A stretch of DNA of 64,000 nt, taken from assembly GCA_963815195.1 (NCBI GenBank), contig CAWFGE010000013.1, positions 1,024,001 to 1,088,000 on the forward strand, written 5' to 3'. Below the pieces are notes generated by a model. The model worked only from the letters and a program-made list of their open reading frames with translations, made no database searches and was not told the origin of the DNA. Positions within the stretch are counted from its first letter, which is position 1. Each line of letters opens with the position of its first letter. Both the position numbers and the translations under genes were made by a program. The DNA comes from an uncultured Planctomycetaceae bacterium. Lineage in GTDB: Bacteria > Planctomycetota > Planctomycetia > Planctomycetales > Planctomycetaceae. Positions 29,730 to 34,456 of this stretch are shown one piece after another.

Positions 29730-30905
<1,176 letters not shown>

Positions 30906-31066
30906 ACACCAAAGCCCAGATTCGCGAAGCGTACTCTGGGTCCCCGACGTGCCAAGAATCCATACGCCGAAGGCGTTATACAATTCGGTAGTTCCCAATT
31001 ATGGAAAAAGGACCAAAGGTCCGGCCCGATGTCAGCCCAGACATCTGAGGTTTTTTCAAGTGGGTT

Positions 31067-32048
31067 TCAGGTGGTTTCTGTTGTTGTTTCCAATAAATTC
31101 CAGACGGGGCTGTTTCTGATTGTGAGTTGTTCCTGGTACTTCATTTCCGAGTAAGGGGTGCCGGTTTGCCACATCCGAAAGATGATGCGAATCCATTTGA
31201 AGGCCAAGGCGCGGACCGCGGCGTGGTGGCTCATGCCGGCCGCGCGTTTCATTTGATAGAACGCTCGGGACCAATCGCTCCAGCGGCGGGCCTGGTCGGC
31301 GAACTCGTGGAATGTCTGCCGGAGAAATTTGGGGCAGGCGATTCGCGACAACACGAGCCGGGTCTTCCCGCTTTGCTTGGTGATCGGGGCGATGCCGCTT
31401 TTGGATTGCACGTCCCCGGCGTCTTGGTAGCGGTCCCGGTCGGAGCCCGCTTAAGATCGCCCAAGCTCGGCCAGCGGCGAAGCACGGCGAGCAACAGGGG
31501 TTGGCGACTCTTGCCGGCACACCATTCGAGCAGTTGCGGAAAATACAGCTTGAGCGTGCCTTCGAGCTTCTGCACAAGGGTTTTGCGGTCATCGACCAGC
31601 TTGCGGCGAAGTTCGGACAACTCGGCCAGGCGGCGGGTTTCGGGATCGTCCGCCACGAACGGGAGGAGTTGCTCCTGATGGTTTTGCAGAAAGCGGGCCA
31701 AGAGTGCGCATCGTCTGGATCGGATTTCGCTCCCGAAGGATGAATCGCGTCCCGATAGCGGGCCAGCTGCTTGGGATTGATGGGATACAGTTCGAGTTCC
31801 AGGTCGGCGAAACGGCGGAGCGCGTTCATCAGCGCGCCGCGGCTTTGCTCCAACGCGATCCGAATCGGGCGACCGGGGAATTGCTTCCGCAGGCCGGCGA
31901 GCCAGTCGGCAATCGCTTCGGGCGTGTGTTCGAGTTGCCGGTGTTCGGTTCCGCCGTCGGGAAGCAGCCGGCAGACGGCATGTTCGCGGTCGGCCCAATC
32001 GAGGCCGATCAGCACACAGGCATTGGGGTCGAGCAAATTCGAGTGCAT
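31067..32048 (-). pseudogene. IS110 recombinase/transposase, frameshifted and internally deleted
   Basis: RuvC-like DEDD motifs (IGLDWA, IALEQ, KSDPDDA) and C-terminal SGIAPITKQSGK...AVRALAFKWIRI are spread over three frames. Frame breaks at about 31705 and 31445. Confidence 0.9.
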
Positions 32049-32079
32049 GGGGGATCGTCTCCTGTTAAAGTGAAACACA

Positions 32080-32256
32080 ATCAAAAAGGGCACGCGATCT
32101 TGGGAGCGGGCGAAAACCTTATAGTCCGAGACGTTTTGGCGTCATCATCTGGAGTGATTCGTTGGTTCCCAAGAGCATCGTCCCGCTCGAAAGTCTGGGC
32201 TCAATCGTTGAAGCGATGGGGCGCACGATTCGTAGCGGGGCGACGCGTGCCTGATT
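32080..32256 (-). ncRNA. Predicted IS110 bridge RNA (target-binding and donor-binding loops)
   Basis: Guide segments at 32219-32225 and 32195-32201 match the insertion site; 32146-32151 and 32118-32124 match the element's circle junction. Each pair flanks a small hairpin inside a larger stem. Confidence 0.85.
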
Positions 32257-33076
32257 TTGATCCTCTCAAAGTTGGGGCTGGAAAAACAGGAAAAAAACGG
32301 CGCTGGATCGGCTCCGGCGCGGAAGAGTCCGTGGGGAGAGACTTGCGTCCCCCCGCCCTCTCCCGCGGCCGATCCATCCCTCAGCAAATCCTATAAGGGC
32401 GCAGCCCTGGGAACGGGAACGAACAAAATGCAAAAGCCCCCGCGGGGCGGTCCTAAACCGGAGATGCGCAGGTGACTGCGTGGGTTTGAAGCCGCCCCTG
32501 CACGTGACACATAGGGCCGCCCCGTTGGGGCTTGCGTTTCATTAATCATCCGTAACCCAGGCCGGCGCTGCGCTTGGCCTGGGCTGACATAGAGCCGGGC
32601 CTTCGGCCCTAAATTCTTTTGGTGCAGGCGTCTCGCCCGCCAATGCAGCCGGGACGGTTGCACCATGATCACGCGAAATTTGAAACGACTGATTTTGAAT
32701 AACGCCTTCGGCGTGTGTTTCATGATTGTCAACACGACACCCAAGGTGTCGCGGCTGTGCCGTTGACCTTGGGATTTGTTCTCTAACGCCTTCGGCGTAA
32801 GACTCCGTCCACAAAACTCTTGCAAATCCTGCAATTCTGGGATGTTCTCCGGCGAAGTCTCTTTGCAAACGCGAAATTTCCCAAAAAACCTCCGAGCGTT
32901 TAACGTCTTTTTGTAACTGAAGTTGCGACCACAGCCGGCCAAGAGAACCCGAAAAAATCTCCTAGAGGCCGGAATCGGCCTCAAGTTTGCATTTGAAGAG
33001 GGGCGTTCGGCAAGGATGTCGAACTCCCGGCGATTCCCTTCCGCCGCCTCCCGCAAACTGATGGAGCGACAATCAC

Positions 33077-34456
33077 ATGCGTTTGAGCAAGGATGCTCTC
33101 AAGAACCCGTTCTTATTCGCTTTGGCCGGGCTAATCTTCTCGGCCGGCTTCGCACCCGCCGCCACCTTCCGCACGCGGAATTTCCTCGTCACGGCTCCCA
33201 CCCCCGAAGTCGCCGAGCAATGCGGAAAATGCGCCGAGCATTACCGCAAAACGCTCGCGGAAGACTGGCTCGGCGAGGAAATGAAACCCTGGTTCAAGCC
33301 CTGCACTTTAACGGTCAAAGTCGGGCAGATTGGAGCCGGCGGTGCGACGACGTTCGCCTTCGACCGCGGCGAAGTCTTCGGCTGGCGGATGAACGTCCAA
33401 GGCAGCATGGAACGCATCCTGGACAGCGTCATCCCCCACGAAGTCAGCCATACGATCCTCGCGTGCCATTTCCGCCGGCCGCTCCCACGGTGGGCCGATG
33501 AAGGCGCCGCGACGCTGATCGAGCACGAATCCGAACGCCGGCGGCAGGCACTCTTGCTCCAGCAGGTCTGGAACACGTCGCAACGGATCCCGCTCAAAAA
33601 ACTGTTGTCGATTAAAGACTATCCCCGCGAAATGCAGCACGTGCTCACGCTGTATGCCGAGGGTTATTCGCTGGCCGACTTCCTGGTGCAAGCCGGCGGC
33701 AAGACGCGGTATCTGGAGTTCTTGGAAACCGCCCACCGCAACGGCTGGGACCGGGCCATCGAGGAACATTACCGTCTCGAAGGCGTGGACGATCTGGAAA
33801 GCCGGTGGAACAAGTGGATCATGGCCGGCAGCCCGCGGTTGAACATCCCCAAAGACACGCAGCTTGCCTCGAATGACGAGCCGAAAGCCCCTCGTCCCGA
33901 GCCTTCCGAAGAAGATTTTCAGCGCCCGGTCATTCGCGGCCAATCGCCTGAAACTCAGGCCCCCGTGGAAGCGCAAGTCGCGGCCGCGGTGCAGCATCCA
34001 CCGGCGTCTGTCGAACCCAATGCCCATTTGGCGCTCCCCAAAGCGAACGAAATCCGGCAGGAATCCCCCGGCTGGCGACGGATGCGGCGGAAACTCGAAG
34101 AAATCCCCGAGGACTTTGTAAATCCTGCAAACGATCCCGCAAAATCTGCAATCGGACGCGAAGTGCAAACCGCCGAGGTGGAACCGGCATCGCCTCTCCC
34201 AAATCCCAACCGGCCGACCGCCGGCACGCGCCCAAACCCCGCCGGCACTCGGATGGAAACCCAAGCTTCGCCCGCCCCGCCTCGAAACGAACCGCCGTTC
34301 CGGTTTGAGCTCGGCGGTTCTGAATACGAAAGTTCTCCTGGAGGACAGACTCTCGGTAATGGTCGCGCGCCGAACGGGTCCGAATTTCCCCGCACTCGGA
34401 CCGCACGCGACCCGGCCACGCTCGGCCAGGCATCCGAACGTCCCTTCTCTCCCTAG
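33077..34456 (+). CDS. Secreted zinc-metallopeptidase-like protein with a Pro-rich disordered C-terminus
   Basis: IPHEVSH (HEXXH) followed by LPRWADEGAA; signal-peptide-like N-terminus. Confidence 0.75.
   Translation: MRLSKDALKNPFLFALAGLIFSAGFAPAATFRTRNFLVTAPTPEVAEQCGKCAEHYRKTLAEDWLGEEMKPWFKPCTLTVKVGQIGAGGATTFAFDRGEVFGWRMNVQGSMERILDSVIPHEVSHTILACHFRRPLPRWADEGAATLIEHESERRRQALLLQQVWNTSQRIPLKKLLSIKDYPREMQHVLTLYAEGYSLADFLVQAGGKTRYLEFLETAHRNGWDRAIEEHYRLEGVDDLESRWNKWIMAGSPRLNIPKDTQLASNDEPKAPRPEPSEEDFQRPVIRGQSPETQAPVEAQVAAAVQHPPASVEPNAHLALPKANEIRQESPGWRRMRRKLEEIPEDFVNPANDPAKSAIGREVQTAEVEPASPLPNPNRPTAGTRPNPAGTRMETQASPAPPRNEPPFRFELGGSEYESSPGGQTLGNGRAPNGSEFPRTRTARDPATLGQASERPFSP

What the first reader, a model, noticed from the sequence alone, without database searches (positions are those of the whole stretch)
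32080..32256. Readable bridge RNA with guides matching both the target and the donor junction
Seen on the minus strand, 5'->3'. Target loop: UGCGCCC (32225-32219) equals the left target TGCGCC-C(T), then a small hairpin, then AGCCCAG (32201-32195) complementary to CT-GGGCT; the loop is closed by stem 32179-32191/32229-32242. Donor loop: CAGAUG (32151-32146) equals the left donor CAGATG(T-CT), then the hairpin GACG-CCAAAA-CGUC, then CUAUAAG (32124-32118) complementary to CT-TATAG; it is closed by TCTTGGGA/TCCCAAGA. An outer stem GGCACGCG/CGCGTGCC encloses both loops. Established: this target-loop-then-donor-loop layout matches IS110 bridge RNAs. Inference: a programmable RNA-guided recombinase variant with its own specificity and a three-way-junction fold. 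The class is known; whether this member has been described I cannot tell.
Basis: partly seen in the sequence, partly recalled or inferred. Interest (0 to 1): 0.88.

Follow-up and report, generated by a model that had tools for sequence, protein, structure and literature searches.

The report
IS110 bridge RNA with enclosing stem
This stretch very probably encodes the guide ("bridge") RNA of an IS110 jumping gene: its loops spell out both the insertion site and the element's own ends, a known mechanism, but here an extra outer stem clamps the two loops together, as in a whole group of relatives.

Summary
The stretch is the left non-coding end of an IS110 element (window 32397-31039, minus strand). 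The genome holds five copies, all at one site in a repeat; two have an intact 427-aa DEDD/serine recombinase, the window copy is broken.

Among 82 homologous elements the target guides change with the flanks (left 6.1 of 7 matches vs 3.5 shuffled; right 4.4 of 5 vs 1.4). The core switches CT to CC together with both guides, and handshake bases and a junction promoter are conserved. The outer stem covaries at 7 of 7 pairs and fixes loop spacing at 25-29 nt. It is clade-wide and is also present in an ISEsa2-family element, so it is not special to this member.

Against: a 93%-identical relative with the same guides sits at a non-matching site; the left donor guide usually fails at the two core-adjacent bases; expression was not testable.

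Verdict: a known class (IS110 bridge RNA) in a structural variant whose enclosing stem I did not find in the paper texts searched; relevant figures were not visible. Solid, moderately interesting.

The parts
32398..32404 (-). Left target (7 nt of host repeat before the core)
   Evidence: Same in all 5 genome copies; intact empty site at G000:C12 near 900520
32396..32397 (-). Left CT core; start of the element
   Evidence: Boundary shared by 5 copies
32391..32395 (-). Right donor (first 5 nt of left end), complement of the right donor guide
32388..32393 (-). -10 box of the promoter formed only when the ends are joined (17-nt spacer to the -35 box)
   Evidence: junction promoter in 46 of 52 homologs vs 0 of 48 integrated left junctions
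32305..32375 (-). Long 5' hairpin, probably the 5' stem-loop of the primary transcript; sequence and length not conserved
   Evidence: 37 of 58 homologs have a 5' region with z <= -2 against mononucleotide shuffles; the ISEsa2-family copy has only about 35 nt here
32089..32251 (-). Bridge RNA core: outer stem enclosing target-binding and donor-binding arms (three-way junction)
32244..32251 (-). Outer stem, 5' arm (pairs with 32096-32089)
   Evidence: 7 of 7 pairs with changes on both sides, 82.9% of cells paired in 60 sequences
32219..32225 (-). Left target guide (6 target nt plus core C)
32195..32201 (-). Right target guide (5 target nt plus core)
32193..32194 (-). Target-loop handshake bases, complementary to donor positions -2/-1
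   Evidence: Definition from PMC11208158; first base pairs donor -1 in 64 of 68 homologs
32146..32151 (-). Left donor guide (donor -7 to -2; the next two bases do not match -1 or the core C)
32118..32124 (-). Right donor guide (7 nt including core)
32116..32117 (-). Donor-loop handshake bases; first base complementary to target -1
   Evidence: 45 of 49 homologs
32089..32096 (-). Outer stem, 3' arm
31067..32048 (-). IS110 recombinase gene, broken in this copy (frameshift near 31704; 301-nt deletion between 6-nt direct repeats near 31442, about codons 203-303)
   Evidence: Pfam PF01548 and PF02371 pieces; intact copy P0001 passes NF033542
31054..31059 (-). -35 box of the junction promoter in the right end
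31041..31047 (-). Left donor (last 7 nt of right end)
31039..31040 (-). Right CT core; end of the element
31034..31038 (-). Right target (5 nt of host repeat after the core)

Best explanation
This is the bridge RNA gene of an IS110-group element. Shown here by sequence comparison: element ends, a CT core, four guide segments that track target and donor across homologs, handshake bases, a promoter completed only by joining the ends, an IS110 recombinase with D17, E67, D110, D113 and S327, and an outer stem that closes both loops into a three-way junction at fixed spacing. Inferred from IS621 and ISEc21: the element forms a circle, the junction promoter transcribes the RNA, one recombinase dimer binds each loop, the loops open and pair with target and donor, and strands exchange at the core. 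Handshake pairs (0 Watson-Crick before exchange, 3 after) would favour insertion over excision. Inferred and untested: the outer stem is a scaffold that holds the two arms in one folded unit and may define the ends of the mature RNA. The window copy cannot make recombinase; its RNA and ends are intact, so it could be moved by the intact copies.
For: Five copies at one site, plus an empty perfect site. 5 of 6 repeat arms with a perfect 14-nt target are occupied, 0 of 87 imperfect arms, 13 of them with one mismatch. Left target 6.12 of 7 vs 3.52 shuffled, right target 4.43 of 5 vs 1.44, n=49 each, 0 of 5000 shuffles as high. Own target beats the nearest relative's target in 46 of 52, ties 5, loses 1. 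Core CC goes with GG in both guides in 15 elements, CT with AG in 58, 1 discordant. Handshake first base pairs the non-cognate DNA in 94% and 92% vs 9% for the cognate DNA. Structure: 88.9% of cells paired vs 69.0% shuffled and 31-42% slid. Protein: NF033542 above cut-off, catalytic residues invariant in 11 and at least 90% conserved in 72 sequences, model closest to IS621 and ISCro4.
Against: L062 (same genus, protein 93% identical) has identical guides but flanks matching 4 of 7 and 0 of 5; it was removed by the 90% de-duplication and is in no count above. A second perfect 13-nt guide match outside the repeat is empty. The left donor guide matches donor -1 in 38% and core C in 40% of 68 homologs, and this member matches neither. 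Donor ends and donor loop were found with motifs, so invariant donor positions are circular. Three of 52 elements score 8 or less of 12. No transcript, circle or activity was seen.
Confidence: 0.93

Rival explanations
1. Bridge RNA yes, but the outer stem has no role in recombination: it only protects or defines the RNA ends, or insulates the ribosome-binding site, and the two loops work as independent modules as in split IS621/ISCro4 RNAs.
For: In ISCro4 (IS622) the RNA can be split and the linker is thought not to touch the protein. The outer stem's 3' arm ends 2-31 nt before an SD-like motif in 52 of 60 homologs. The outer stem is the least well paired helix (82.9%), and 6 of 60 rows had under 3 expected enclosing pairs (some are truncated).
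Against: Spacing is tight: 25-29 nt between the two loop anchors in 59 of 60 rows, 17 nt from outer stem to target loop in 50 of 60, which looks like a ruler. It is not a terminator: a U-tract follows in only 3 of 60.
Confidence: 0.45
2. The working species is a shorter target-loop-only seekRNA cut from the long transcript, as reported for ISEc21 and CazIS110-1; the two-loop form is a precursor or serves one pathway only.
For: A shorter RNA was more abundant and sufficient for ISEc21; target-loop-only RNA was about 10-fold more abundant for CazIS110-1.
Against: Donor guides covary with donor ends (10 of 14 variant left-donor cases match exactly; 3 of 3 variant right donors), and the outer stem ties both loops into one unit.
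Confidence: 0.15
3. No guide RNA: the matches are chance or leftover duplications and the fold is a DNA or mRNA-leader structure.
For: No RNA evidence was obtained; one close relative sits at a non-matching site.
Against: Guides track 48 different targets among 52 elements, on both strands, with core and handshake covariation; helices use G-U pairs and compensatory changes.
Confidence: 0.02

Closest known systems
IS621 bridge RNA and recombinase (Durrant 2024, PMC11208160: sections 7, 12, part of 43, passages, parts of supplements 3, 4, 5, 7; Hiraizumi 2024, PMC11208158: passages)
   Same: RNA in the left end, target loop then donor loop, 7+2+5 target and donor, CT core, handshake bases, junction promoter, REP-like target, DEDD plus serine, same fold (TM 0.81 by target length).
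   Different: In the published IS621 structure string the two arms are joined by 11 unpaired nt with no enclosing stem; here a 2-nt joint and an outer stem. Natural right target guide is 7 nt (IS621 4 nt). Right donor guide is contiguous (IS621 discontinuous). Left donor guide is lax at -1 and core C. Protein 427 aa at about 19% identity, with a helical insert near residues 170-238. CC cores occur naturally; the IS621 design code warns against cores not ending in T.
ISEsa2 family (ISfinder name as annotated on plasmid NZ_CP056623.1); by motif resemblance only also ISCfr13, ISCps4, ISCps5, IS1112
   Same: Protein 42% identical; its left end matches my model at 69.9 bits with all 7 outer pairs. 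The clade is in the Durrant phylogeny table.
   Different: Different guides, apparently a different core, almost no 5' region. The 13 papers that name ISEsa2, ISCfr13, ISCps4 or ISCps5 look like genome surveys by title and abstract start (listing only).
IS1111-group bridge/seekRNAs with multi-loop donor regions (PMC11208160 section 12; Siddiquee 2024, PMC11187229: section 6 and passages)
   Same: A multi-branched bridge RNA is already described.
   Different: There the RNA is mostly downstream of the gene and the donor-binding bases sit in the multi-loop; here both guides sit in simple internal loops and the junction lies between the arms.
Structurally deviant bridge RNA clusters of the COMPASS survey (10.64898/2026.10.21.760802: section 2.4 and passages)
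   Same: 86 covariance models, many visibly unlike IS621, guides covarying with DNA; median 25 programmable nt, here 27-29.
   Different: Text gives no junction or multiloop (0 occurrences); figures S12 and 4 were not visible, so this clade may be shown there.
ISPpu10 and ISPpu9 of Pseudomonas putida (10.64898/2026.03.19.712850 abstract; PMC12288879 search listing)
   Same: IS110 elements inserting into repeated intergenic stem-loops; here the site lies in an 8-bp DNA hairpin.
   Different: A role for the target hairpin was not tested here; homolog targets were not checked for hairpins.

Membership tests
IS110 family element | [quoted passage not shown] | tested here: met
   (NF033542 171.9 bits, cut-off 140); intact in 2 of 5 copies, broken in the window copy
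IS110 family element | Insertion at a specific site around a short core, no long terminal inverted repeats | tested here: met
   5 of 5 copies at one site; empty site present
IS110 family element | Circular intermediate with promoter across the joined ends | tested here: inconclusive
   Promoter motif at the joined ends in 46 of 52 vs 0 of 48; the circle itself was not seen
IS110 group (not IS1111) | Long left end holding the RNA, short right end | tested here: met
   Left end 349 nt, right end 28 nt
Bridge RNA | Target-binding loop whose left guide equals the left target and whose right guide complements the right target, covarying across homologs | tested here: met
   one counter-example L062
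Bridge RNA | Donor-binding loop with left and right donor guides | tested here: met
   donor -6 to -2 matched 96-100%, right donor 56 of 58 exact; partly circular because ends were found by motif
Bridge RNA | Core included in all four guide pairings | tested here: inconclusive
   Right guides both read the core in 73 of 74; left target guide reads core C in 86%; left donor guide only in 40%, and not in this member
Bridge RNA | Handshake dinucleotides pairing with the non-cognate DNA | tested here: met
   64 of 68 and 45 of 49 for the first base; second base 62% and 39%
Bridge RNA | RNA is expressed, binds the recombinase and is required for programmable recombination | not testable with these tools
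   Needs RNA-seq and a recombination assay
IS621-type bridge RNA fold | 5' stem-loop, then two arms joined by an unpaired linker, no enclosing stem | tested here: not met
   Covarying outer stem and 2-nt joint vs published IS621 structure
Rfam RNA families | Match at a gathering score | tested here: not met
   9 weak matches in 30900-33100, none near its cut-off

The most novel reading that the evidence does not exclude
This clade has solved the known weakness of bridge recombinases (donor-donor and half-match recombination) with RNA architecture: the outer stem clamps target arm and donor arm into one rigid three-way junction, perhaps gripped by the recombinase's extra helical region, so that only a target-plus-donor complex assembles. 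With a natural 7-nt right target guide and natural CT, CC and other cores, it would be a higher-fidelity, core-flexible scaffold with a lax left donor guide, mechanistically distinct from IS621/ISCro4.
Probability: 0.2. Interest if true: 0.68.

Novelty: new variant of a known kind. Interest (0 to 1): 0.38.

Why it matters
Bridge recombinases are an active genome-editing class, and the solved structures found (IS621, ISCro4) come from one branch of short proteins. This clade offers a readable scaffold with at least 48 natural target programs, natural core switching and a different RNA topology. It makes two open questions testable: whether tying the two loops together suppresses half-match and donor-donor products, and what the variable helical region of long IS110 recombinases does (stated as unknown in PMC11187229). 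If the outer stem is only an end-protecting device, this is one more well-supported member of a known class.

Tried and rejected
Rfam: nothing near a cut-off. Expression: no RNA holder listed among 11 runs; no evidence either way. Contigs of 4 DNA runs laid on an intact copy: one 1689-nt contig spans the element in the run that may be the source; joints that skip the element appear in all 4 runs but may come from other arms of the repeat; no circle joint and no joint for the 301-nt deletion were listed, which shows neither absence of circles nor that the deletion is an assembly error. The joined-donor 14-mer has 0 hits in the assembly. Solo bridge RNA copies: none beyond the 5 elements by blastn. 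Outer stem as intrinsic terminator: rejected, U-tract in 3 of 60. Long-guide variant: rejected, 27-29 nt vs 28 for IS621. First promoter test used one -10 register only and found 12 and 17 of 52; allowing both registers gave 46 of 52. Idea that the conserved UC after the donor hairpin completes a split left donor guide: no covariation to support it, left open. REP-associated transposase beside the repeat: 6 Y1_Tnp matches, 5 of them at least 9 kb from any counted arm, the sixth on a contig with no counted arm. Model R1 missed 6 of 45 sources: L058 and L059 (31-33% protein identity, apparently another RNA fold), L025, L042, L065 (little upstream DNA) and L166. Literature searches for a three-way or multi-way junction in bridge RNAs returned no listing that describes one beyond the IS1111 multi-loop; figures, bioRxiv supplements and the cut part of Durrant supplement 3 (no ISfinder bridge RNA location table turned up) could not be seen. 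Earlier-findings look-ups by place, sequence and the junction words were empty.

Full report
Observation. The 177-nt stretch folds at -61.5 kcal/mol, z -3.67, with 0 of 200 shuffles as stable. The two loops share a repeated frame motif, so they are pseudo-symmetric as in IS621.

The element. The stretch is upstream of a broken IS110 gene (PF01548, PF02371). The genome holds five copies. All have the same boundaries: a CT core at each end, a 349-nt left end and a 28-nt right end. Two copies encode an intact 427-aa protein (P0001), which passes NCBIfam NF033542. Its AlphaFold2 model (pLDDT 90.8) is closest to IS621 and ISCro4 (TM 0.81 by target length, 19% identity). D17, E67, D110, D113 and S327 are invariant in 11 aligned sequences and at least 90% conserved in 72. 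The window copy has a 1-nt deletion and a 301-nt deletion between 6-nt direct repeats; two other copies have frameshifts. Some single-base indels may be sequencing errors; I could not tell. The closest named relatives (57-61%) are mostly from Planctomycetota, so the host is probably a planctomycete (inference).

Target choice in this genome. All five copies sit at the same position in a REP-like repeat. Of 93 repeat arms found with an anchor outside the 14-nt target, 5 are occupied. Among the 88 empty arms, 1 has a perfect target, 13 have one mismatch and 74 have more. So 5 of 6 perfect arms are occupied and 0 of 13 one-mismatch arms (by hand, hypergeometric p about 0.0005). One further perfect 13-nt guide match outside the repeat is empty. 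The site lies in an 8-bp DNA hairpin, as reported for ISPpu10 (abstract); its role was not tested.

Homolog set. Loci came (50; 12; best 80 of 552; 12). After removing own-genome duplicates and two sequence duplicates, 113 had enough upstream DNA. A donor-loop motif was found in 93, and 20 were missed. De-duplication at 90% left 83, and L157 was dropped as misaligned, giving 82. Left ends were found in 58, right ends in 68, both in 52, using donor motifs only.

Covariation. With one row per distinct flank, the left target guide matches 6.12 of 7 flank bases (shuffled 3.52, n=49) and the right guide 4.43 of 5 (shuffled 1.44, n=49); 0 of 5000 shuffles reach either value. The left score allows four registers in both data and shuffles. 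Matching stops after 5 bases on the right (69% at +5, 16% at +6). The 52 complete elements have 48 distinct targets. Against the target of each element's nearest relative, its own target scores better in 46, equal in 5, worse in 1. The core is CT with AG in both right guides in 58 elements, CC with GG in both in 15, and 1 is discordant. Left donor variants match in 10 of 14 cases; three elements change right donor and guide together. The handshake bases defined for IS621 (passages) behave as predicted: the first base pairs donor -1 in 64 of 68 and target -1 in 45 of 49, against about 9% for the cognate DNA. This member has no Watson-Crick handshake pair before exchange and three after, close to wild-type IS621 (one and three; PMC13626964 passages). 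Joining the ends makes a sigma-70-like promoter with a 17-nt spacer here and in 46 of 52 homologs, against 0 of 48 integrated left junctions.

The outer stem. On a MAFFT alignment of 60 of the 82 (chosen by hand, leaving out close kin and poor aligners), RNAalifold predicts the enclosing stem unaided. The tool warns that relatedness inflates the first control. A model built from these hit 39 of 45 further sources, including 12 of 14 motif-missed loci tested; there the outer stem again covaries 7 of 7, though that alignment is fitted to the model. Loop spacing is 25-29 nt in 59 of 60 rows. An annotated ISEsa2-family element (42% protein identity) has the same fold with all 7 outer pairs, and 559 plasmid records hold a protein match at E 1e-30 or better. 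The fold is therefore a clade trait, found down to about 38% protein identity and not detected in two loci at 31-33%.

Against. L062, 93% identical and with the same guides, sits between flanks matching 4 of 7 and 0 of 5. Its right flank matches the right donor at 4 of 5, which fits the donor-half-match insertions described for IS621 (10.64898/2026.08.31.748434, abstract and section 8), but misassembly is not excluded. It also weakens the high-fidelity reading. The left donor guide matches donor -1 in 38% and core C in 40% of 68, against 96% and 86% for the target guide; IS621 pairs both. This is unexplained. No RNA, circle or activity was observed.

Mechanism. Steps shown by comparison: ends, core, guides, handshake, promoter motif, catalytic residues, fold. 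Steps inferred from IS621, ISEc21 and CazIS110-1: circle formation, transcription from the junction, two recombinase dimers on the two loops, strand exchange at the core; whether excision is cut-out or copy-out is disputed in those papers. The function of the outer stem is my inference: a clamp and ruler, or only end protection.

Novelty. The class is known. Durrant et al. predicted a bridge RNA in 85.7% of catalogued IS110-group elements and noted multi-loop donor regions in IS1111; their tree table holds this clade. A 2026 preprint built 86 models from 32,190 bridge RNAs, many unlike IS621. I found no text describing a stem that encloses both loops, but the figures that would show it (Durrant Fig. 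6d, COMPASS Fig. S12) and bioRxiv supplements were not visible. This scan already holds 333 findings with the words bridge RNA IS110. I rate it a new structural variant of a known kind, interest 0.38.

Noticed in passing
window 31010-31040 and 32398-32610; genome-wide: The target repeat is a family of about 93 arms, 29 pairs of them in inverted orientation 129-235 bp apart (REPIN-like doublets). The window copy interrupts one arm of such a doublet between ispG/gcpE and a peptidase-MA-like gene. No Y1 transposase lies next to a counted arm.
   Followed up: partly
L062 (G001:C25 near 390900-392540): Single near-identical element with unchanged guides at a non-target site whose right flank resembles the right donor: a possible natural half-match insertion.
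   Followed up: partly
L166 (G002:C24:151874-151942): A 69-nt piece 74% like the start of the left end, with no bridge RNA match and no recombinase match at E 1e-40 in that genome: a remnant or a non-autonomous element.
   Followed up: no
L019, L034, L035, L038, L081, L087, L089, L092, L101, L104, L109, L122 and others: A sub-group uses a CC core, with both right guides ending in GG (15 elements): natural core reprogramming.
   Followed up: partly
L168:440-651 and 1920-1945: The ISEsa2-family element has the same fold, a very short 5' region and seemingly a core other than CT; it sits beside nickel-resistance genes on an enterobacterial plasmid.
   Followed up: partly
L058, L059: Relatives at 31-33% identity have a two-loop upstream region that model R1 does not recognise: the edge of the clade and another bridge RNA fold.
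   Followed up: no
L084, L095, L117: Between the target-loop stem and its hairpin these three seem to lack a guide-length left segment (output, by eye), yet they score 50-66 bits on the model: possibly degenerate target loops.
   Followed up: no
window 32255-32262 with 32079-32087: A further helix can extend the outer stem in this member; conservation not tested.
   Followed up: no
window 32690-32800: A second kind of short repeated hairpin lies just beyond the doublet; its weak Rfam match is far below cut-off.
   Followed up: no
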